Part shown: positions 5,018 to 19,597 of the stretch, piece by piece
Position numbering within the stretch: the stretch's first letter is position 1
Layout of the letters: the number at the start of each line of letters is the position of its first letter
NCBI GenBank assembly: GCA_028703305.1
Contig: JAQVNC010000001.1
Coordinates: 56,791-120,790, forward strand
Reading direction: 5' to 3'
Origin: Patescibacteria group bacterium
GTDB lineage: Bacteria; Patescibacteriota; Patescibacteriia; Patescibacteriales; GWC2-42-12
DNA length: 64,000 bases
The notes under the pieces: model-generated
Database searches by the model: none
Told to the model about the DNA's origin: nothing
The model's input: only the letters and a program-made list of their open reading frames with translations
Translations under genes and position numbers: made by a program

Positions 5018-5572
5018 ATGCCAGTATCAACAGGAGGCAACACGTTAATTGATGTTAATTTGCTTTTTAGCAAAGCTCAAATTGAAGAAAAAATGAAAGT
5101 CGCCGATTTAGGCTGCGGTTCTTCCGGTCATTTTGTTTTTCCCGCGGCTAAGTTAATCGGCAAAAAAGGAACTATGTACGCGGTTGATATTTTAAGAACT
5201 TCCTTGGAAACGATTAGCAAACGTGCTCGTGTTGAAAATTTGGCTAACATTAAAACAATTTGGAGTAATCTGGAAATATTCGGCGCTACTAAAATTGAAG
5301 CCGGCAGCTTGGACGTTGGCTTGTTAATCAATACTTTGTATCAATCTCATAAGCGAGCTGAAATTTTAAGAGAATCAATCAGGTTGTTGAAAAAAAATGG
5401 CAGGTTGGTTATTGTTGAATGGAAAAACGTTGCCGCGCCGTTCGGCCCGCCGGCGGAAGAAAGAGTAAAAAAAGCATTGGTTGATAACGCGGCTAAAAAA
5501 CTCGGGCTAAGGCCGGAGGATGAATTTGAAGCCGGGCCTTATCATTACGGGCTGATTTACGTAAAGTCATAA
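5018..5572 (+). CDS. Class I SAM-dependent methyltransferase
   Basis: DLGCGSSG motif I and Rossmann-like downstream motifs. Confidence 0.6.
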   Translation: MPVSTGGNTLIDVNLLFSKAQIEEKMKVADLGCGSSGHFVFPAAKLIGKKGTMYAVDILRTSLETISKRARVENLANIKTIWSNLEIFGATKIEAGSLDVGLLINTLYQSHKRAEILRESIRLLKKNGRLVIVEWKNVAAPFGPPAEERVKKALVDNAAKKLGLRPEDEFEAGPYHYGLIYVKS

Positions 5573-12396: not shown

Positions 12397-12645
12397 GCTA
12401 CATCACAGTTGCTCTTTTTTAATACGCGGGATTCATTGGCCTGCCGGGGCTAATGATGAAATTTTTGCTTAAGCCTTTAAAACCAGTCCGCTGGCCGAGG
12501 CCACCTCCTCCTACCGCAACGGACGGGGTTTTCGCAAAAGTTTGATTTCCCGCTTTAGGGGTTGGTCTGCTGTGCGGCGGAGTTGCCAACGACTGCTCCG
12601 CTTGACTAATGCATGCCACGGACCGCCCCTTTTTCTCTTTTTAAA
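12397..12645 (+). ncRNA. Candidate GC-rich structured ncRNA of unknown class, about 250 nt, bounded by a promoter and a terminator
   Basis: About 55% GC in a roughly 35% GC genome with no credible ORF in any frame; long-range stem aggggttggtc/gaccgcccct followed by ttttctcttttt; an internal gcggag…ctccgc hairpin. Confidence 0.4.
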
Positions 12646-12883
12646 AAGCATCAATTAAGATGCTTCTTTTTTTATAAAATTTGCCCAGATTATTTAATCT
12701 AAAATTTCATATTCCCAGCCCGGTTGCCAACCGGTCGCCAGGTCATTCTCATTATCAATCGTCGTGCCATGCACGAAGTAGGTTATTTTTACGGGCATAA
12801 TTAAGAGTAGATATTTTATTTAGTACAAAGTGTAAAAGAATTAGGGTATAAATGCTCCGGAGACAAGGCTTATTATTACATGA

Positions 12884-14137
12884 CTATGCGGCAAAAGCAA
12901 ACAATTGTTGCTGAATGCACACAGGCGTTTCCTCTTTTTCTTCTTCAATTTCACCGTTAAGCATTTTAATTATCATGTCGCCGATGTGATATCCGAGGTT
13001 TGCAGGTACAGCATTTCCTATTTGTTTATATTGTTGCGAAACGGATCCTGAAAATTTCCAACTATCTGGAAATGTTTGAATTCGCGCGTATTCGCGCACA
13101 GACAAAGGGCGCGTTTCATCTGGATGGCAACGTTCAGTTTGTTTTTGAGCCGGACTGCAAGTTAAGGTTAAAGATGGTTCGTCCCATGACAATCGTCTCG
13201 CCATGCCAGTTTTGCCGCCACCCATAAAATAACTTGCTCCCATGTATTCTTTTTGAAGATTTTCCGGAAGATCTCTCCAGTACCCGCCAGGAGGAATTAG
13301 TTCTAATATTTTTTTCTTTTTTTCGGGATATTCTTGGCCTTCAGATTTTGGGCATCTGTTGAATGCTTCACGCAGGGGAACGATATAATCTTTTTCCCTT
13401 GGAAATGAAATTGGAATATTTAAATCTTTTCTAACGCCAATAATTATAAGACGTTCTCTTTTTTGCGGAACATCCAAATATTGTGATCGTAGAATTTTAT
13501 ATTTAACTCGGTATCCAATTTCTTCTAAAACAGACACCATCGTTTTAATCGTTCTGCCATCGTTATGGTTTAGTAATCCTTTGACATTTTCTCCAATTGC
13601 AATTTTAGGCCTAACTTCCTTAACACATCTCGCGAACTCAAAAAATAATGTACCCCGTATATCTTCAAACCCCATTTTTCGACCAGCTTGCGAAAAAGTC
13701 TGGCAAGGGAAACCTCCTTGAACAATATCAGCCTGCCCTTTAAAAAATTTAAGCTCTCTTATATCTTTTTCCACAACATTCCAATTTGGCTTGTTGATTC
13801 GAAGTGTTTCACAGGCGTGTTTGTCATACTCGTTTAATAACACATGTTCAATTCCCGCGTTTTCCATCCCTAAAGCAGTGCCCCCTGCGCCAGCAAATAA
13901 CTCGATTGCTGTGTAGTTGGACATTCGATTATTCTTTAAAATTTTAAATTTGCTTTTTTTATCCCCATGAGTTTTATTTTGTATTCTCTTTATTTCTTCT
14001 AAACTAAATATACGATCGTTTTTTCCATCTCTAAAAGATTTAATTAATCCTTTTTTATCCCACCTCCTGATAGTATCAATTGAAATACCTAATTGACGAG
14101 CCGCCTCTCCAGCGGTTATGAATTGATTTTTTTTCAT
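12884..14137 (-). CDS. DNA (cytosine-5) methyltransferase with an N-terminal MerR/excisionase-type HTH domain
   Basis: N-terminal FITAGEAARQLGISIDTIRRWDKKGLI (HTH); ELFAGAGG (motif I); GFPCQTFSQAGRKMG (PC motif IV); ENV; and a C-terminal QIGNAVP. Confidence 0.85.
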   Translation of the reverse strand: MKKNQFITAGEAARQLGISIDTIRRWDKKGLIKSFRDGKNDRIFSLEEIKRIQNKTHGDKKSKFKILKNNRMSNYTAIELFAGAGGTALGMENAGIEHVLLNEYDKHACETLRINKPNWNVVEKDIRELKFFKGQADIVQGGFPCQTFSQAGRKMGFEDIRGTLFFEFARCVKEVRPKIAIGENVKGLLNHNDGRTIKTMVSVLEEIGYRVKYKILRSQYLDVPQKRERLIIIGVRKDLNIPISFPREKDYIVPLREAFNRCPKSEGQEYPEKKKKILELIPPGGYWRDLPENLQKEYMGASYFMGGGKTGMARRLSWDEPSLTLTCSPAQKQTERCHPDETRPLSVREYARIQTFPDSWKFSGSVSQQYKQIGNAVPANLGYHIGDMIIKMLNGEIEEEKEETPVCIQQQLFAFAA

Positions 14138-14198
14138 AAAAAATGATAGATTAATAATCTATCATAATTATATCAAATAACCTTTGCCTAGGCAATGG

Positions 14199-14906
14199 TT
14201 ATTTAGTGAGAAAAGCTAATTTAAATAATTCAAAATATTTCTTAGCTTCTTCTTTGCTTAATTTAAACTTGTATTTGTCTACTAAAATATGAGATAGTGC
14301 TTCAAATAGTTCCTGCAGGGCATATTTTCGTCCGGTTGCAAGAGCATAAAAGCTTATGCCATCAATTATTCTGATATTTTTTGCGCTCGGTCTTCTTTTT
14401 TGAGTCTTATTGTCTGATGGGGTAAAAGGTTTGTCGTATATGTTTTTTGCTTGAGGTATTATTTCTACATAATATCCAGTAAAGCGATGAAATTTTTCTG
14501 ATTTAAGTTTTGATTTTATAGCATCATATATTTCAACCTTATGATTTCCTTTTGTTGTATTGAATTTATTTTTTACTTCCGCGATAATTTTCATTTTATC
14601 ATTTGCAACATCCAAACCTCCACCAACGCCGAGATTTTTCCAGCCAGGGATTGCACCCAATACTTCTTGATGAAAATCACCAATGGCATTTTGCATTGTT
14701 TTTTGTGATTGTCTGGCCTTTTCTTGTTTTATCCATTCTTTATATGTTATCGCATGGGTGACCCCATGAAACAAGGCTGAAAAAGGATCAATAACATTTT
14801 TATGGAGATTACTACTGGCCTCACGTTCGGTCGTTTTGATTATTCTGACCACTTTTCCAACGGCAGAAATTAGGTTTTTGTCGGATATAAATTTTAGATA
14901 TGGCAT
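14199..14906 (-). CDS. Putative type II restriction endonuclease partnering the C5-MTase (tentatively Eco47II-like)
   Basis: Adjacent and co-directional with the C5-MTase, 235 aa, no housekeeping similarity; the family assignment is from memory only. Confidence 0.45.
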   Translation of the reverse strand: MPYLKFISDKNLISAVGKVVRIIKTTEREASSNLHKNVIDPFSALFHGVTHAITYKEWIKQEKARQSQKTMQNAIGDFHQEVLGAIPGWKNLGVGGGLDVANDKMKIIAEVKNKFNTTKGNHKVEIYDAIKSKLKSEKFHRFTGYYVEIIPQAKNIYDKPFTPSDNKTQKRRPSAKNIRIIDGISFYALATGRKYALQELFEALSHILVDKYKFKLSKEEAKKYFELFKLAFLTK

Positions 14907-14927
14907 AAATATTTTTAATAATTAATT

Positions 14928-15110
14928 AAATCGTTTTCGCGGCGGAGCGGTTTTGCTCAACGTCGGCGCATATAAGAAGAAATGCGAAACGAGTTGAGGT
15001 GGTACAATTTGTGCGGAGCACTACCACCGAAAACGAGTGTAGCATTTTTTGCGTGAACGAGCCATGCGAGTGAGCCTTATATGCGCTGTTATATGCTGTG
15101 CCAGCCTTAT
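14928..15110. repeat. GC-rich repeat A: the 3' half of the 66-bp core plus a variable hairpin module (gcgcatataag…cttatatgcgc)
   Basis: cgcggcggagcggttttgctcaacg matches the right half of the cores at 15731 and 18911; long-range cgttttcg/cgaaaacg pairing. Confidence 0.6.
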
Positions 15111-15111
15111 A

Positions 15112-15570
15112 CTAAAGCTGTTTTTTCATTAGTGTCATTGAACCTACATCACCAACAATTTCCTTTATTTTTTTATATCCTAACTTCTTATAAAAATTTA
15201 CTGCAAAGGGGCTTGCTTTAAGGGAGACGGAGCGAAAACCCCATTTTTTTGCGTCACTTTCTAAACGATTCATGAGCTCTCTACCAATGCCCTTACCATG
15301 ATAATTCGGATTAACAAACACAGCACGACCCCAATTATCGTTCAGTGTTAAATCTAAAGTAGCAGTACCAACAACTTTTCCATTTAATTCAGCAACATAG
15401 ATATTGAATCGTTTAGAATCCTTAATAAACTGACCAGGTGTAAAATGCTTGTAGAGGATCACAGTTTGCTTTTTAGTTATATCTTTACTGTTAATTAAAA
15501 CGATACATTTTCTGCTTAAATAAGAAAGTTTTCGCTCGTCTCCCTTTTTAAATTTTCGAATTTTAATCAT
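15112..15570 (-). CDS. GNAT-family N-acetyltransferase
   Basis: Acetyl-CoA motif VGTATL…RAVFVNPNYHGKGIGRELM; start taken at MIKIRKF (15570), because the ORF-track N-extension runs into the GC repeat. Confidence 0.75.
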   Translation of the reverse strand: MIKIRKFKKGDERKLSYLSRKCIVLINSKDITKKQTVILYKHFTPGQFIKDSKRFNIYVAELNGKVVGTATLDLTLNDNWGRAVFVNPNYHGKGIGRELMNRLESDAKKWGFRSVSLKASPFAVNFYKKLGYKKIKEIVGDVGSMTLMKKQL

Positions 15571-15574
15571 AAGT

Positions 15575-15900
15575 TTAAGGCTGACATGGCATATAACGCG
15601 CGCGGGATATGCGATGCGCCTGGAGGCCAGTACTCTGGCCGCAAGGCGTTTCGCATATCCCGAGTTGGGCGATGCCGCTCCGCCTTGCCCGTAGGGCGGG
15701 CGAGCGGCGAGTCCAACGAGGGCCTGCCCGCGCGCGTTGAGCAAAACCGCGAGCACCGAGCGTTAGCGAGGGCGGAGCGGTTTTGCTCAACGTATCGGCA
15801 TATCTGATGTTTGCCGTAGCGTAGCGGAGGCAAATATGGGTGGAGGCTTTTGTATAAAAGCCGTAACCAGATATGCCGTGTTATGTGATGTGCATGTTTT
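15575..15900. repeat. GC-rich repeat B: hairpin cgggatatgcga…tcgcatatcccg, then the 66-bp core (15731..15796), then a variable hairpin module (ggcatatctg…cagatatgcc)
   Basis: The core cgcgcGTTGAGCaaaaccgc…gcggttttGCTCAACgtatc is identical to 18911..18976. Confidence 0.7.
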
Positions 15901-16016
15901 ACTTTAATCCCGATAGCAATCGGGATTGCTCTAAAAAAGAATTTTAATTTTGTTTTTTTTGTTTTGAAAAAATGAAAGAGGGGTTAGGGGTGAATTCCAT
16001 TTTTCAAAACTCCTTA

Positions 16017-16754
16017 TTATTTACTACGTTGTTTTTTATAAGCCTCAATAATTTTATTTGCCAATTCATTAGATTTAGATTCGTATTTTACAAATTCATC
16101 AATATTATCTTGTTTAACATGTAGCTGCCCTTCTCCGGTGTTGCCTCTGTGCTGTCCTTTTGAATAGTATTTATTTTGCTCAACTTCTTTTGAAGCAAGT
16201 ACCCAATATTTAATCGTGTCTCGCCAAACTCCAACCCAAACAAAAACATCGCAACATTTAGGCTTTACTTGTTGAAAATTCATATCAAATGGTAGTCCTG
16301 ATTCCCATGCTAACGCTTTAACATAAAGTGCTTCTTGACTGTTAAAATCGACAGCTCTTGAGGCTTTAACTTCTATTTTAATCATTTCTCCATTCGTTAG
16401 CGGATATAAAAAGTCGTATTCTCCAGAATAATTTTCTTCAAGTTTCTTTGTTGGCTTAATAAGTTCAGGAGCAAGCTCTTTTAGGTGTCCCTGTGCCCAT
16501 TGTTCTCCAAACCCACGTGGTGCAGAAATTTCAAATATGTAGAGATACATATTTCTAGCAATATACTCATCTCTAATTTCTAGATAATCGTCTAAAGTGA
16601 TTTTATCTAGACCTAACAAAGTTGAAATTATGTATTCATATTCATTAAATGGATACACCGAAATTAAATTTTCGAGCCTTGTTTTAAGTCCGTCGCCCTC
16701 TTGTTTTGAAAGAGAGTCTATCATCTTTTCGAGTTTTTTCTTTAGAATTTCCAT
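16017..16754 (-). CDS. Hypothetical protein with a PD-(D/E)xK-like motif; putative restriction endonuclease of the second R-M module
   Basis: …EYDFLYPLTNGEMIKIEVKASRA… (D…ExK arrangement); 4 bp downstream of and co-directional with the N6A-MTase. Confidence 0.4.
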   Translation of the reverse strand: MEILKKKLEKMIDSLSKQEGDGLKTRLENLISVYPFNEYEYIISTLLGLDKITLDDYLEIRDEYIARNMYLYIFEISAPRGFGEQWAQGHLKELAPELIKPTKKLEENYSGEYDFLYPLTNGEMIKIEVKASRAVDFNSQEALYVKALAWESGLPFDMNFQQVKPKCCDVFVWVGVWRDTIKYWVLASKEVEQNKYYSKGQHRGNTGEGQLHVKQDNIDEFVKYESKSNELANKIIEAYKKQRSK

Positions 16755-16758
16755 AGGA

Positions 16759-18723
16759 TTATTTAATGTTAAAATTTTTAATATGTTTTTTTTCTTTTTC
16801 TGTAAGACTAAATTGATCCATTATATAATTATCCAATTCTTCATATTTGTCTTTTTTGGCTATTATATCATCTACTAATTTCATAATTATTTCAAAAATT
16901 TCTTTATTCCATAAAGGTAAAGGCATTTGTTCAATATGATTTCTCAAAACTTTTATACTCGAAAACTTTTTTTGAAAAATAAACTGATAAGGAGATGAGT
17001 TTAATAAAGCAACGATAACCTTAATTGGATAGTTTGGGATTTTGGGAATTACAATATTTGCACTATTTAAAGTTAATTTTTGCTTGTCATCATATGCAAA
17101 TATCAAATACTTTGAAATGAAGCGATAAATTAATTTTTCTTTAGCTCTATATTTTTCGATAGGAGCAACTTGTTGAAATTTTTCGGGAGTAAATTGTATG
17201 TAATTTGACGGATTACTTAAAATAAATTTATCAACTTCTTTTCCTTTATATATTTCTTCAAGTCCTTCTTTTTTTTCGCTCGTTATATATGCTTTGTTAT
17301 TGCCAGTAACAATACCAAGTGCCCAATCTGCTTGATTTGATAATGTTGTGTGCTGAATATCAAAAATTTTATCAATTATGCTTGTATCAAAGCCATTTGC
17401 ATGTATGTCAAAAACAAAGTCAATATTATTTTTCCACTTAGATTGTTCAATGAAATATTTTTCATTTTCTTTAAAAATTTCAATCTGTGTGTTTTCTATT
17501 CTGTTTTTTTCTAAATCAAGTCTGATAACTGGAGTAAATACATTTTTAAACACACGATTCAAACAAGAGACTTTTTTTATATGAGTATTTTTCAAAATAA
17601 TTTCTCGTATATCTTTGTGTGTTTTTACATTCAAAATTGATTCAGGCAAGATAAATGAAATAAATCCTCCGTCTTTTAGCAAATCAATACTCTTTTTTAA
17701 GAAATAAGAGAAAGATTCTAAAGATGTTATTTCAGGATAGGTTGTTTTTAATTTTTCTGTATCTAATTTTGAAAAATGAACACCCCAAGGTGGATTTGTC
17801 GCAATTACATCAAAATCTCTAATATTCTCGTCATTCAAACTAAATAAATCATAACTTCCAATTTCAAAAAGTGTATTTTTACAAACAATATTTGGTGCGA
17901 AGTTTTGATCTTTATATTTCATCAAGATATTTAATCTTGCGATTCTCACAGCTATTTCGTCTATATCAACTCCGTAAATATTTTTTGGATTTTCAACTGT
18001 ATCAGCAAATGCTAATAAAAATTGACCTGTTCCACAACAAGGGTCTAAAACTTTAGAATCTGTTTTTACATAATCCTTAATTATTTCATTAACGATTGTT
18101 TCTGGCGTATAATAAGAGCCTCCTTGTGATTTTTCCCCCTCAAGTAATAGTGATTGATAAAAAAATCCCAAAGTATCACGTTGTCTGGGGATAGAACAAT
18201 TTAACAAAAAGGAATATTCATCTTTAACATTATCAACACCAATATCTGATAACCATGCTTTGATTTCTTCTGAGATTTGTTTGTTGGTGGAAGATAAATT
18301 TTGTGTGATTAAATTTTGAATTGTAATATTTGAAAATATTTTTTCTTTTTGAAGTAAGTTAAGACTTAATAATAATAAAGAAAGTGAAGTATTAATATTA
18401 TTTTTTGAAACAAAGTCTAAAATTTTATTTATGTCATCAATACTAATCCCATCTTTTAAATATTCATCTGGAATAAAAGTCCTCTCTGCTTTAGATTTAT
18501 TTGCCCTTCCATTTAATTTGTCAAAATCACCATTTACTATGTTAGATTTGATATTTTCAATATCGGATAAACTAAAAGAATATCGTCTTTCATTGTTATA
18601 TGTTTTTAGATGACCGCATTTAACCCAATTTCTTACGGTCGCAGTTGAAATACCTAAAAAAGACGACGCTTTTTCAATGTCTATGATATTTTTTGCCTTA
18701 TTTGTAATAGTTAATTCCTGCAT
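16759..18723 (-). CDS. Gamma-class N6-adenine DNA methyltransferase with an N-terminal HTH and a C-terminal target-recognition domain
   Basis: N-terminal ASSFLGISTATVRNWVKCGHL (HTH); VLDPCCGTGQFLL (motif I) precedes DVIATNPPWG (motif IV); start taken at MQELTIT (18723), so the ORF-track N-extension is untranslated leader. Confidence 0.8.
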   Translation of the reverse strand: MQELTITNKAKNIIDIEKASSFLGISTATVRNWVKCGHLKTYNNERRYSFSLSDIENIKSNIVNGDFDKLNGRANKSKAERTFIPDEYLKDGISIDDINKILDFVSKNNINTSLSLLLLSLNLLQKEKIFSNITIQNLITQNLSSTNKQISEEIKAWLSDIGVDNVKDEYSFLLNCSIPRQRDTLGFFYQSLLLEGEKSQGGSYYTPETIVNEIIKDYVKTDSKVLDPCCGTGQFLLAFADTVENPKNIYGVDIDEIAVRIARLNILMKYKDQNFAPNIVCKNTLFEIGSYDLFSLNDENIRDFDVIATNPPWGVHFSKLDTEKLKTTYPEITSLESFSYFLKKSIDLLKDGGFISFILPESILNVKTHKDIREIILKNTHIKKVSCLNRVFKNVFTPVIRLDLEKNRIENTQIEIFKENEKYFIEQSKWKNNIDFVFDIHANGFDTSIIDKIFDIQHTTLSNQADWALGIVTGNNKAYITSEKKEGLEEIYKGKEVDKFILSNPSNYIQFTPEKFQQVAPIEKYRAKEKLIYRFISKYLIFAYDDKQKLTLNSANIVIPKIPNYPIKVIVALLNSSPYQFIFQKKFSSIKVLRNHIEQMPLPLWNKEIFEIIMKLVDDIIAKKDKYEELDNYIMDQFSLTEKEKKHIKNFNIK

Positions 18724-18771
18724 GGTAATTTGTCTTTTATAGTGTAATTGTATCTTGTTTTCAAAAATATT

Positions 18772-18806
18772 AAAATCGTTTTCGGAGCGATAGCGGAGAA
18801 AACACC
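18772..18806. repeat. Degenerate partial copy (D) of the GC-rich repeat in the 5' leader of the N6A-MTase
   Basis: aaaatcgttttcggagcgatagcggagaaaacacc versus repeat A aaatcgttttcgcggcggagcgg. Confidence 0.45.
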
Positions 18807-18879
18807 TTATACCCCCCTCTTTAAAAATTAAAAAAATCAAATTCCTTGTTTCTTAAAGCCCACCAAAAACATTTAAAAA

Positions 18880-19140
18880 AACAAATTTTTCAAAAATATG
18901 TCGCCTAACGCGCGCGTTGAGCAAAACCGCGAGCACCGAGCGTTAGCGAGGGCGGAGCGGTTTTGCTCAACGTATCCGAATATACGAAGTTCTAATTTTT
19001 TTCTGTGTTATAATTGTGCGGACACGCCAACGCAGAAAAAAATTAGAATTTAGGCGGAGATAAAATTCAACTCATTAATGTAATGTAAAAAGGAATTTTA
19101 TCGGAGCCGTATATTCGGTGTTATCGGATGTAAAATTTAT
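18880..19140. repeat. GC-rich repeat C: GCCTAAC-gcgcgc then the 66-bp core (18911..18976) then a variable module (cgaatatacg…cgtatattcg, with a nested ttctaatttttttctg…cagaaaaaaattagaa hairpin)
   Basis: 66-bp perfect identity with 15731..15796; the flanking stems covary around a central ATAT. Confidence 0.7.
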
Positions 19141-19152
19141 TAGCGGGCTTAT

Positions 19153-19482
19153 TTAAACGAAAATTTGAATAATATAATAATAAATGACACTTAAAACAAG
19201 TATTAAACTTGTTGCTTTGATAAATTGATTTTTTATTAATATCGAAAATTTGATTAAAAAGAACGTTAATGCCAAAAATATTATTAGCGGATAAATGCTC
19301 ATTATAACAAAAGCAGTGCCTCCAAAAACGGCTTGAATGCTTTCGTTGAAATCAGAAGGGTAGCCGTTTATTTTTGGAATTATAAATAAGTAACATGCTG
19401 ATAAAAATAATGAGCTTACAAAAAGAAGCGGAATTAATAAAAAATCAAATTTTTGGGGTCTTAAGATTTGTAGTGGTTTCAT
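19153..19482 (-). CDS. Hypothetical small membrane protein (3 TM segments)
   Basis: Hydrophobic profile only. Confidence 0.45.
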   Translation of the reverse strand: MKPLQILRPQKFDFLLIPLLFVSSLFLSACYLFIIPKINGYPSDFNESIQAVFGGTAFVIMSIYPLIIFLALTFFLIKFSILIKNQFIKATSLILVLSVIYYYIIQIFV

Positions 19483-19597
19483 TGTTATATTGTTAAAAAT
19501 TAGAAAGCTAATAAATTTTATTTCCGATAACTAGTTATATATGAACTTAATTATATTTTATTTAATTTTACAATAAAAATCAAATAAGGTTTTGGGT

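What the first reader, a model, noticed from the sequence alone, without database searches (positions are those of the whole stretch)
12884..18723. Both methyltransferases (C5 and N6A) carry an N-terminal MerR/excisionase-like HTH domain
The C5-MTase begins MKKNQFITAGEAARQLGISIDTIRRWDKKGLI… before motif I. The N6A-MTase begins MQELTITNKAKNIIDIEKASSFLGISTATVRNWVKCGHL… before its motif I.

N-terminal HTH fusions are known for a few MTases, for example the M.SsoII/M.Ecl18kI type, where they autoregulate R-M expression. Finding the same HTH type on two unrelated MTase classes in adjacent cassettes suggests a shared regulatory logic. One possibility is binding to the GC-rich repeat fragments, which sit 25-50 nt upstream of the REase1 and MTase2 start codons (repeats A and D).
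Basis: partly seen in the sequence, partly recalled or inferred. Interest (0 to 1): 0.55.

Follow-up and report, generated by a model that had tools for sequence, protein, structure and literature searches.

The report
DNA methylases with fused MerR-type HTH
Both restriction-modification methylases really do start with a small MerR/excisionase-type DNA-binding domain; the cytosine methylase very probably uses it to shut off its own promoter at a conserved 24-bp palindrome, not at the GC-rich repeats, so this is a variant of a known self-regulating design.

Summary
M1 (C5-MTase, 14137..12884) and M2 (N6A-MTase, 18726..16759) each begin with a MerR-superfamily winged helix-turn-helix (wHTH). Pfam, profile-profile comparison, PDB profile hits and AlphaFold/Foldseek all agree. 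Each domain is kept in 118 of 119 family members, so the two fusions are old and independent. The two cassettes never occur together in the other loci examined.

M1 has a strong operator candidate. A 24/25-bp palindrome (half-site TAACCWTTGCMT; window 14178-14201) lies upstream of all 25 M1 genes examined that carry the DTIRRW recognition helix. It always sits 3-6 nt before a TATAAT, and its TTGC supplies the -35. It is absent from HTH-less and HTH-divergent relatives. The likely function is autorepression of the MTase promoter, a MerR-type, tandem R->M variant of SsoII/EcoRII-like regulatory MTases.

M2 has no conserved operator, although its recognition helix is nearly invariant. One relative also carries a C-protein-like gene. 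Its target is unknown.

They are attC-like cassette-boundary elements of an integron-type array and are absent from all related R-M loci.

The finding is of moderate interest: a new variant of a known kind.

The parts
12884..14137 (-). M1: C5 cytosine DNA methyltransferase, 417 aa, with an N-terminal wHTH
   Evidence: Pfam DNA_methylase 9.6e-83 for residues 76-391, plus MerR for residues 8-43. More than 120 homolog clusters share the MerR+DNA_methylase architecture.
13964..14122 (-). M1 N-terminal MerR-type winged HTH (residues 6-58). It is followed by a Lys-rich linker (59-75) before motif I.
   Evidence: The domain is 75% conserved and present in 118/119 homologs.
14178..14201 (.). O1: 24-bp palindrome TAACCATTGCCTAGGCAAAGGTTA, the candidate operator of the M1 HTH. 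Its first 3 nt are the R1 stop codon.
   Evidence: It occurs once in the 64-kb window. It is present upstream of M1 in 24/24 related loci, and in 0 of 29 other loci. The half-site consensus is TAACCWTTGCMT. Position 6 is unpaired in 13/19 sequences, so what is conserved is the sequence, not a hairpin.
14167..14195 (-). Predicted M1 promoter: -35 TTGCCT (14195-14190, inside O1), 17-nt spacer, extended -10 TGnTATAAT (-10 at 14172-14167)
   Evidence: 10/12 match with TG, joint best of 30 promoter-like sites in the region. The TATAAT is kept at 3-6 nt from O1 in all loci, while the distance from -10 to ATG varies from 6 to about 35 nt.
14143..14165 (-). Second perfect palindrome ATGATAGATTA-T-TAATCTATCAT followed by T5 and the ATG. 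It is either a 5'-UTR hairpin or a second operator.
   Evidence: RNA fold -8.6 kcal/mol, z -2.4. It is present only in the closest 18-19 loci, and covariation is not significant.
14199..14906 (-). R1: Eco47II-family restriction endonuclease, upstream of M1 and co-directional with it
   Evidence: Pfam RE_Eco47II 7e-50; PADLOC REase_II 1.5e-52. An R1 homolog lies upstream of M1 and co-directional in 21 of 24 loci, with at most about 76 nt between them in 19; in L020 and L023 the R1-like match ends about 140-260 nt upstream.
16759..18726 (-). M2: gamma-class N6-adenine DNA methyltransferase (N6_Mtase/Eco57I + TaqI_C target-recognition domain), 655 aa, with an N-terminal wHTH
18556..18690 (-). M2 N-terminal excisionase/RacA-like winged HTH (residues 13-57)
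   Evidence: The motif STATVRNWVKCG is nearly invariant.
18457..18555 (-). Conserved helix and the KLNxRANKxKAxRTFxPDEY motif after the M2 HTH (residues 58-90); function unknown
   Evidence: There are invariant columns in A2 and 74% mean identity. The model shows a long helix 52-82 at low pLDDT.
16017..16754 (-). R2: type II restriction endonuclease, starting 4 nt after the M2 stop
   Evidence: PADLOC REase_II PDLC03414 1.4e-73; no Pfam hit. A 241-246-aa ORF follows M2 directly in most related loci; it is confirmed as an R2 homolog only in L031-L033. It is split or shortened in L035 and L044-L046.
18736..18764 (-). M2 upstream promoter-like block: TTGAAA-17-TATAAA (18764-18736), overlapping TACAAT (18752-18747). 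The pair TAYAAT-N6-YATAAA is the only block kept in the M2 subclades that can be aligned.
   Evidence: Read. No palindrome is conserved.
18778..18820 (-). The 5' cassette element AGAGGGG..GGTGTTTTC-[GC-rich loop]-GAAAAC (the conserved CGATTTTA tail runs on to about 18770).
   Evidence: It is conserved in L031/32/34/39/44/43 with a loop of 8-20 nt. The same design lies upstream of R1 in L003 and L001. It resembles the central hairpin of the attC sites. The RNA fold is not better than shuffles.
18909..18991 (.). GC-rich 83-nt repeat, copy 1. It comprises the end of an attC-like site plus the hairpin GTTGAGCAAAACCGC..GCGGTTTTGCTCAAC, and lies immediately outside the M2 cassette start G|TTAGGC.
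15729..15811 (.). GC-rich 83-nt repeat, copy 2, between the M2-R2 cassette's attC-like site and the GNAT gene
14941..14979 (.).
   Evidence: 82-87% identity over 39 nt. It is absent upstream of R1 in all 18 related loci.

Best explanation
Each methyltransferase is a two-part protein. A small MerR-superfamily winged HTH, lacking the coiled-coil and effector domains of canonical MerR regulators, is joined by a short linker to a complete MTase. Each fusion was inherited with its own R-M module and was not created at this locus.

**M1** belongs to an Eco47II-family system with R1 upstream of M1 in tandem. The HTH most likely works as an autorepressor:
- Two M1 molecules bind the 24-bp palindrome O1 (half-site TAACCWTTGCMT), whose left half supplies the -35 of the MTase's own promoter (TTGCCT-17-TGnTATAAT).
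- RNA polymerase is occluded once enough MTase has accumulated.
- The 17-bp spacer argues for repression rather than MerR-style activation by DNA untwisting.

What is shown: the domain, its conservation, the palindrome, its fixed position relative to the -10, and its co-occurrence with this HTH. What is inferred: binding, dimer stoichiometry and repression.

**M2** (M2 then R2, an operon-like pair with a 4-nt gap) may work the same way by analogy, but no conserved operator exists. Its DNA target is therefore unknown.

**The GC-rich repeats** are integron-type cassette junctions (attC-like sites plus a small hairpin unit), not binding sites for these domains.
For: **Domain identity:**

**Conservation and correct starts:**

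**Operator O1**
- TAACC-N14/15-GGTTA is found at the expected place in 24/24 loci encoding M1 homologs with the DTIRRW helix (67-95% aa identity), plus the window.
- Half-site positions 1-5, 8, 9, 10 and 12 are invariant or nearly so in 50 half-sites.
- It is retained in L018, L019 and L022, which have no R1 homolog anywhere in the locus, and in L020 and L023, whose flanking DNA is otherwise unalignable.
- It is absent from three HTH-less epsilonproteobacterial (Sulfurovum-type) homologs (L026, L027, L029). It is also absent from homologs with a divergent HTH: L025 and the Psychrobacter, Bacteroides and Vibrio plasmids.
- There is only one chance match to the looser pattern in about 360 kb of loci.
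- The promoter scan finds TTGCCT-17-TATAAT with TG at 14195-14167.
- The O1-to--10 distance is constant while the -10-to-ATG distance varies.
- Mismatches in the palindrome are not compensated, which points to protein recognition rather than a hairpin.

**Precedent:** regulatory MTases with a fused N-terminal HTH repress their own promoters (PMC3978073, PMC2760811, PMC12707154).

**GC repeats as cassette junctions:**
Against: - No experiment supports binding; O1-HTH binding is inferred from co-occurrence only.
- As RNA, O1 also folds into a stable hairpin (-13.6 kcal/mol, z -4.3) that starts at the R1 stop codon. It could therefore double as, or be primarily, an R1 3' structure.
- The minimal wHTH has no obvious dimerisation element, so a dimer on a palindrome needs DNA- or MTase-mediated cooperativity.
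- The second palindrome (14143-14165) is unexplained.
- For M2 there is no conserved palindrome or motif upstream or within the cassette across 12 non-redundant loci, although the recognition helix is nearly invariant. One relative (L047) has a separate Xre-type C-protein-like gene 3 nt upstream. Both facts weaken the autoregulation reading for M2.
Confidence: 0.6

Rival explanations
1. Both HTH domains bind the GC-rich repeat fragments upstream of R1 and M2 (repeats A and D), giving the two adjacent cassettes a common regulatory circuit.
For: - A shared motif CGAAAACGATTT(T)AAT lies 25-60 nt upstream of both R1 and M2 in the window (D8).
- The motif is conserved upstream of M2 homologs (L031/32/34/37/39/44) and upstream of R1 in L001/L003/L004/L006.
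- RacA, the closest structural match of the M2 HTH, binds GC-rich repeats. This last point is from my own knowledge and was not tested here.
Against: - The 83-nt GC-rich repeat is absent from the 33 related loci searched (L001-L033) and lies outside the M2 cassette border.
- Repeat A is absent from all 18 related R1 upstream regions.
- The GTTTTC/GAAAAC arms of repeat D have a spacer varying from 8 to 20 nt. That is incompatible with a fixed dimer site.
- The element resembles the central hairpin of the attC sites.
- M2 relatives in other subclades keep the HTH unchanged but lack the element altogether.
- M1's HTH has a far better candidate operator elsewhere.
- The two recognition helices differ.
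Confidence: 0.06
2. The HTH domains are not transcription regulators. They are accessory DNA-binding modules that tether the MTase to DNA or help substrate search. O1 is merely the 3' hairpin or terminator of the R1 transcript next to an ordinary promoter.
For: - O1 folds well as RNA and begins at the R1 stop codon.
- M2 has an invariant HTH but no conserved operator.
- L047 has its own C-protein-like regulator.
- A conserved motif (KLNxRANK..PDEY) directly follows the M2 HTH, suggesting integration with the enzyme.
Against: - O1 persists, with invariant TAACC/GGTTA, in L018, L019 and L022, which have no R1 homolog in the locus, and in leaderless-type arrangements.
- Its variable positions break pairing instead of co-varying: 13/19 are unpaired at position 6.
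- It has no U-tract and was not called as a terminator.
- It co-occurs strictly with one HTH sequence type.
- A sequence-specific 24-bp site occurring once per genome window is not what a general tether would need.
Confidence: 0.2
3. The domains act as excisionase-like recombination directionality factors, or as attC/structured-DNA binders, linked to the mobility of the integron-type cassettes that carry these R-M systems.
For: - The domains match excisionase-family models (TIGR01764 at 28.8 bits; Xis 4j2n; IS607 transposase N-terminus).
- Both cassettes sit in an attC-bounded array.
Against: - The same fusions occur outside any visible cassette array: Psychrobacter, Bacteroides and Vibrio plasmids, and chromosomal contexts such as downstream of nrdR.
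- O1 is promoter-associated, not junction-associated.
- No attC-like sequence is conserved with M1.
Confidence: 0.04

Closest known systems
SsoII/Ecl18kI-type regulatory C5-MTases
   Same: A complete C5-MTase is preceded by a ~55-70-residue HTH domain and a flexible linker. There is a palindromic operator in the MTase promoter, and the expected outcome is MTase autorepression (PMC3978073, PMC2760811, PMC12707154).
   Different: - The HTH here is a MerR/excisionase-type winged HTH (PF00376/PF13411), not the Xre/C-protein-like type described for SsoII.
- The genes are tandem R->M, not divergent, so the promoter-competition mechanism that activates the REase gene in Ecl18kI is unlikely.
- The operator is 24 bp and centred at about -29.5.
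- Nothing has been tested experimentally.
M.EcoRII, M.MspI, M.ScrFIA, M1.LlaJI (MTases that repress only their own gene)
   Same: The likely functional outcome for M1 is the same: the MTase represses its own promoter without directly touching the REase promoter (PMC3978073 introduction; PMC12707154).
   Different: Sequence relationship of the N-terminal regions was not examined here. The gene order and the operator differ.
Minimal MerR-like DNA binders (BldC, RacA DNA-binding domain, GlnR/TnrA, phage Xis)
   Same: They share the same fold and size, and lack an effector domain and the long coiled coil. They are the best structural and sequence matches.
   Different: Those are free-standing proteins, whereas here the domain is fused to an enzyme. 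BldC and Xis bind direct repeats head-to-tail (my own knowledge), whereas O1 is an inverted repeat.
C (controller) proteins of R-M systems
   Same: A small HTH regulator is dedicated to timing or limiting R-M expression. One M2 relative (L047) has such a gene as well.
   Different: C proteins are separate Xre-type proteins that bind C-boxes. Neither cassette in the window has a C gene.
MADS (methylation-associated defence system) MAD1 HTH + MAD2 MTase
   Same: A MerR/Xis-like HTH is associated with an Eco57I-like N6A MTase. There are weak hits of the M2 N-terminus to MAD1 and of its catalytic domain to MAD2.
   Different: The scores are far below the model cut-offs (16.6 vs 80 bits; 64.6 vs 720 bits). 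The HTH is fused rather than separate. The partner is a single type II REase, and no other MADS genes are present.

Membership tests
MerR-superfamily winged HTH (Pfam MerR/MerR_1/HTH_17; excisionase-type) | Sequence match to the family models at or above the curated threshold | tested here: met
   M1 scores MerR 39.8 bits (GA 28.2) and MerR_1 34.8 bits (GA 21.6). M2 as a single sequence scores only 25.0 bits for HTH_17 (GA 27). Its family profile matches the M1 profile at 96.9% probability and hits Xis and RacA in the PDB.
MerR-superfamily winged HTH (Pfam MerR/MerR_1/HTH_17; excisionase-type) | Fold: beta1-alpha1-alpha2 (recognition helix)-beta hairpin wing-alpha3 | tested here: met
   The AlphaFold models (pLDDT 86 for M1; 68 overall and about 70-83 across the core for M2) show this order of elements. 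Foldseek top hits are BldC, NmlR, SoxR, RacA, Xis and GlnR. These are predictions, not solved structures.
Canonical MerR-family transcription activators | A long C-terminal coiled-coil dimerisation helix and an effector-binding domain; an operator inside a 19-20-bp promoter spacer | tested here: not met
   In M1 the HTH is followed by a 17-residue Lys-rich linker and MTase motif I. The promoter spacer is 17 bp, and O1 overlaps the -35 rather than lying between the hexamers.
Regulatory (HTH-fused) DNA methyltransferases, SsoII-like | An N-terminal HTH domain fused to a complete MTase and conserved in the family | tested here: met
Regulatory (HTH-fused) DNA methyltransferases, SsoII-like | An HTH of the Xre/C-protein-like class | tested here: not met
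   There is no HTH_3 hit; the matches are to MerR/HTH_17.
Regulatory (HTH-fused) DNA methyltransferases, SsoII-like | A specific operator (inverted repeat) in the MTase promoter region | tested here: inconclusive
   For M1 there is a strongly conserved, promoter-overlapping palindrome, but binding is untested. For M2 none was found.
Regulatory (HTH-fused) DNA methyltransferases, SsoII-like | Divergent R and M genes with competing promoters | tested here: not met
   R1->M1 and M2->R2 are tandem. A divergent arrangement exists in a distant relative on Psychrobacter plasmid pA15P1.
Regulatory (HTH-fused) DNA methyltransferases, SsoII-like | Demonstrated HTH-dependent repression of the MTase gene | not testable with these tools
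   This needs EMSA or footprinting and reporter assays.
MADS defence system | MAD1 and MAD2 matches above the model cut-offs, plus further mad genes | tested here: not met
   MAD1 scores 16.6 bits (cut-off 80) and MAD2 64.6 bits (cut-off 720). The only neighbour is a type II REase.
Integron gene cassette (context of the GC-rich repeats) | A cassette bounded by G|TTRRRY and ending in an imperfect inverted repeat RYYYAAC...GTTRRRY; the same cassette found in different flanking contexts | tested here: met
   The M2-R2 cassette starts at GTTAGGC in the window, L031 and L032, with unrelated DNA upstream. L031 and L032 end in GCCTAAC...GTTA. The window's site after R2 is nearly identical to that of L034. 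It folds as ssDNA with z -4.2 and -5.2. No attC covariance model was run.
Integron gene cassette (context of the GC-rich repeats) | An adjacent integron integrase (IntI) | tested here: inconclusive
   None is found in the window. L034 has a divergent, partial tyrosine recombinase that scores 152 bits on the integron-integrase model and 174 bits on a Xer/integron-integrase model, both below cut-off because the protein is truncated.

The most novel reading that the evidence does not exclude
MerR/excisionase-type HTH-MTase fusions may be a widespread, uncharacterised design for self-contained R-M modules. The module would consist of promoter, operator, regulator and enzyme, without a C gene. Such a design would suit modules that travel as integron cassettes in Patescibacteria.

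Within it, the M2-type domain has a nearly invariant recognition helix but no conserved operator. It may therefore recognise something other than its own promoter, for example structured cassette-junction DNA or a genome-wide site. That would be a new role for an HTH on a methyltransferase.
Probability: 0.15. Interest if true: 0.65.

Novelty: new variant of a known kind. Interest (0 to 1): 0.38.

Why it matters
R-M systems must make enough methylase before the nuclease acts, and then hold methylase levels down. Fusing the regulator to the methylase is one known solution, studied almost only in the SsoII/EcoRII group.

This locus shows a second HTH class, the MerR/excisionase type, recruited for what appears to be the same job. 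The fusion is seen in hundreds of metagenomic relatives and in some plasmids of cultured bacteria. It comes with a precise, testable operator prediction (TAACCWTTGCMT inverted repeat at the -35).

It also shows that the same domain on an N6A methylase need not follow the same logic.

The context is a side result of some interest for defence-island biology: complete, self-regulated R-M systems packaged as integron-type cassettes in ultra-small Patescibacteria genomes.

Tried and rejected
1. **Looking for the GC-rich repeat in related loci.** There were no blastn-short hits in L001-L033, so it was rejected as a cassette-linked operator.
2. **Searching for an M2 operator.**
   - I aligned the upstream regions.
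   - I counted shared gapped inverted and direct repeats and k-mers in 12 non-redundant upstream regions and across whole cassettes.
   - Only AT-rich trivial repeats and the core promoter block came out.
3. **Testing O1 and the second palindrome for RNA-type covariation.** Nothing exceeded the shuffles, so neither can be called an RNA structure. For O1 the unpaired variable position argues the other way.
4. **RNA fold of the M2 leader.** It was no better than shuffles.
5. **Metagenome scan for M2 relatives.** It gave only 3 near-identical loci, so I used exact-protein look-ups instead.
6. **Whole-library profile search with the joint HTH profile.**
   - There were 4425 clusters at E<=1e-3.
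   - The top 150 are dominated by proteins with 2-8 tandem copies of the domain, and only one has an MTase motif.
   - The search did not tell how many other MTase classes carry this HTH, and I did not pursue it.
7. **Literature searches for MerR-type or HTH_17-MTase fusions and for Eco47II regulation.** Nothing relevant was found in the held library.
8. **A GGNCC site-avoidance test.** It timed out and was dropped as not essential.
9. **Rfam at gathering threshold.** It found only tRNAs in the window.

Full report
**1. What is there**

All genes lie on the minus strand of 12.8-19.0 kb:
- M2, an N6A-MTase (N6_Mtase/Eco57I + TaqI_C), at 18726..16759.
- R2, a type II REase (PADLOC 1.4e-73), at 16754..16017, 4 nt after M2.
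- A GNAT acetyltransferase at 15570..15112.
- R1, an Eco47II-family REase (Pfam 7e-50), at 14906..14199.
- M1, a C5-MTase (DNA_methylase 9.6e-83), at 14137..12884.

Source names of identical or near-identical proteins say the organism is a Patescibacteria (CPR) MAG.

**2.

*M1.*
- Residues 8-43 pass Pfam's own thresholds for MerR, and residues 8-53 those for MerR_1.
- The NCBIfam excisionase domain model is reached exactly, at 28.8 bits, when the N-terminus is scanned alone.
- The AlphaFold model of residues 1-70 has pLDDT 86 and beta1-alpha1-alpha2-wing-alpha3 topology.
- Its best Foldseek matches are all MerR-superfamily wHTHs: BldC, NmlR, SoxR, RacA, GlnR, CarH and Xis.

*M2.*
- Residues 16-57 score 25 bits for HTH_17, just below the gathering score of 27.
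- A family profile hits mycobacteriophage Pukovnik Xis and RacA.
- The model has the same topology.
- Foldseek puts RacA first at 31-33% identity and probability 1.0.

*The two domains compared.* They are homologous:
- BLASTP gives 39% identity over 49 aa, E 2e-7.
- hhalign gives 96.9% probability, E 1.7e-10.

*Starts and conservation.*
- Homologs have the same lengths and cover the N-terminus.
- The HTH is present in 118/119 homologs of each family and is about as conserved as the enzymes.
- The extra 38 codons that a TTG at 18840 would add to M2 are non-coding leader in relatives.

**3. Two independent, old fusions**

- R1-M1 (R then M) recurs in 21 of the 24 loci recovered from species-representative genomes.
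- M2-R2 (M then R) recurs in the 19 loci recovered for M2.
- The two modules are never together elsewhere.
- HTH-bearing C5-MTases with more divergent N-termini, next to Eco47II-family REases, also occur on plasmids of Psychrobacter (divergent genes) and Bacteroides. A similar HTH-bearing C5-MTase sits on a large Vibrio replicon, next to an unannotated gene.
- An M2-like enzyme sits on an Acetobacter plasmid.
- A PADLOC/REBASE-derived type II MTase model (PDLC03272) aligns from residue 7 of M1, so the architecture is already in the databases.

**4. The M1 operator candidate**

*Presence.*
- The R1-M1 spacer contains a 24-bp palindrome, TAACCATTGCCTAGGCAAAGGTTA (14178-14201), and a second perfect 23-bp palindrome (14143-14165).
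- In every one of the 24 related loci whose MTase has the DTIRRW recognition helix, a TAACC-N14/15-GGTTA palindrome lies 12-42 nt upstream of the ATG called (the 12-nt value, L015, is a mis-called start; the true range is about 15-42 nt).
- The 50 half-sites give TAACCWTTGCMT, with positions 1-5 and 10 invariant and positions 8, 9 and 12 nearly so.

*Link to the promoter.*
- The palindrome is always 3-6 nt upstream of a TATAAT-like hexamer, often TGnTATAAT.
- Its TTGC provides a -35 (TTGCCT) at a 17-nt spacing. The promoter scan ranks this site joint first in the region.
- The distance from the -10 to the ATG varies. It is 6 nt (leaderless-type) in L019, L022 and L023, and 8 nt in L017. It is about 29-31 nt in the close clade, which inserted the second palindrome plus a U-run.
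- The element is therefore tied to the promoter, not to the ORF.

*Independence from R1.* It is kept in L018, L019 and L022, which have no R1 homolog in the locus, and in L020 and L023, where the surrounding DNA cannot be aligned.

*Absences.*
- It is absent from the HTH-less epsilonproteobacterial (Sulfurovum-type) homologs.
- It is absent from the HTH-divergent L025.
- It is absent from the plasmid relatives.
- It is absent from all M2 loci: 0 of 29 loci.

*Sequence versus structure.*
- Within the palindrome, variable positions break pairing rather than co-vary.
- Position 6 is unpaired in 13 of 19 sequences.
- This fits two independently read half-sites better than a hairpin.

**5. Mechanism proposed for M1**

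- M1 would be made from a good promoter, accumulate, and then bind O1 through its wHTH.
- Two molecules would bind, one per half-site.
- Binding would block the -35 and spacer, which is negative autoregulation as in M.EcoRII, M.MspI and M.ScrFIA and the repressing half of the SsoII/Ecl18kI circuit (PMC3978073, PMC2760811, PMC12707154).
- The spacer is 17 bp and the site is centred near -29.5, so MerR-style activation by promoter remodelling is unlikely.
- R1 lies upstream and co-directional, so the promoter-competition activation of the REase gene seen in Ecl18kI is unlikely.
- Bound M1 could at most hinder read-through from the R1 promoter.
- All binding steps are inferred.
- O1 also folds as RNA (z -4.3), so a secondary role at the R1 3' end is not excluded.

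**6. M2 is different**

- The recognition helix (STATVRNWVKCG) is almost invariant, but the upstream DNA is not.
- One subclade (the window, L031/32/34/37/39/43/44) shares two features. The first is a 5' element, AGAGGGG..GGTGTTTTC-loop-GAAAACGATTT. The second is a promoter-like block, TAYAAT-N6-YATAAA.
- Other subclades have unrelated leaders. One sits 36 nt after nrdR (L049). One follows a Lactamase_B gene (L045). One follows a 70-aa Xre-type C-protein-like gene by 3 nt (L047).
- No shared palindrome or motif emerged upstream or inside the cassette.
- Autoregulation of an M2-R2 operon remains possible, but I rate it no better than about one in three.
- The invariant motif KLNxRANKxKAxRTFxPDEY after the HTH hints at integration with the enzyme.

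**7. The GC-rich repeats**

*The 83-nt repeat.*
- It occurs only in this island: two full copies and one partial copy.
- It occurs in none of the 33 related loci held at that point, L001-L033.

*The cassette boundary.*
- The M2-R2 cassette begins at GTTAGGC (18909-18903) in the window, L031 and L032. The DNA upstream of that point is unrelated in the three.
- In L031 and L032 the cassette ends in GCCTAAC...GTTA, an imperfect inverted repeat with classical integron core sites.
- The window's element after R2 (about 15887-15785) is nearly identical to the one after R2 in L034. It folds as ssDNA with z -4.2 and -5.2.

*The L034 context.*
- L034 has a divergent tyrosine recombinase scoring on integron-integrase models.
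- It also has further ORF-plus-inverted-repeat units.

*Reading.*
L034 has a unit of the same design.
- 'Repeat D' inside the M2 leader resembles the central hairpin of these sites and has a variable loop. I read it as a relic junction, not an operator.

**8. Comparison and verdict**

- This works like the known regulatory MTases but is not an SsoII-family member. The HTH class, the gene order and the operator all differ.
- It is not a canonical MerR regulator either, because it has no coiled coil, no effector domain and a 17-bp spacer.
- I found no paper on MerR-type HTH-MTase fusions in the held library. The architecture is, however, abundant in the databases.
It is a new variant of a known kind, of moderate interest, with one sharp testable prediction (O1).

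Noticed in passing
window about 12650-19500 (minus strand); attC-like sites about 18965-19126 and 15785-15887; cassette start GTTAGGC at 18909-18903: The R-M cassettes, the GNAT gene and a 109-aa membrane ORF (19482..19153) form an integron-type cassette array with no integrase in the window (CALIN-like). The M2-R2 cassette, with a nearly identical attC-like site, recurs in L034 next to a divergent tyrosine recombinase. This would mean complete R-M systems carried as integron cassettes in Patescibacteria.
   Followed up: partly
window 18903-18971 and 15729-15791; L034 about 5440-5560: A small GC-rich hairpin unit (GTTGAGC-AAAACCGC...GCGGTTTT-GCTCAAC-GCGCGC-G|TT) sits exactly at the G|TT crossover after two attC-like sites. 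L034 has a unit of the same design with a different sequence. It may be an ORF-less mini-cassette or a MITE that targets attC sites.
   Followed up: partly
window 18778-18820; L003 3122-3216 (upstream of its R1): The same 5' element (AGAGGGG..G(G/A)TGTTTTC-GC-rich loop-(G/A)AAAAC(G/A)ATTTAAT) precedes two unrelated R-M modules: M2 in the window and R1 in L003 and L001. It may be a relic attC, a shared promoter/insulator module, or something else.
   Followed up: partly
window 14143-14165: A perfect 23-bp palindrome plus T5 lies directly before the M1 ATG and would form the whole 5'-UTR. It is present only in the closest 18-19 relatives, while more distant ones look leaderless (-10 six nt from the ATG). 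It could be an attenuator, an mRNA-stability hairpin or a second operator; this is undecided.
   Followed up: partly
window 15088-15113 and 15572-15597; 15603-15662: The GNAT gene is flanked by 26-nt inverted repeats (GTTATATGCC... / ...GGCACAGCATATAAC). It is preceded by about 160 nt of very GC-rich DNA containing a 28-nt inverted repeat.
   Followed up: no
window 12419-12640 (minus strand): A GC-rich (>55%) non-coding stretch in an AT-rich genome, next to ychF, looks like a structured RNA gene. There is no Rfam hit at gathering threshold and no tmRNA call.
   Followed up: no
window 12694-12798 (minus strand): A 34-codon ORF (MPVKITYFVHGTTIDNENDLATGWQPGWEYEILD) just after M1 looks like the truncated 5' end of a gene, possibly the disrupted insertion site of the array.
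   Followed up: no
L047 1285-1497: One M2 relative has a 70-aa Xre-type (HTH_3/HTH_19) C-protein-like gene 3 nt upstream of the HTH-bearing MTase. That is two HTH regulators in one R-M module.
   Followed up: no
L039 5209-6962; L040-L042 (downstream of R2 homologs): Some M2-R2 modules are followed directly by SMODS (nucleotidyltransferase) + SLATT genes (with an AGS_C domain in L039). The R-M module is thus embedded in mixed defence islands.
   Followed up: no
proteins P0241-P0390: The closest relatives of the joint HTH profile in the 1.84-billion-protein library are mostly proteins with 2-8 tandem copies of this wHTH, 50 to 4430 aa long. Their nature was not examined.
   Followed up: no
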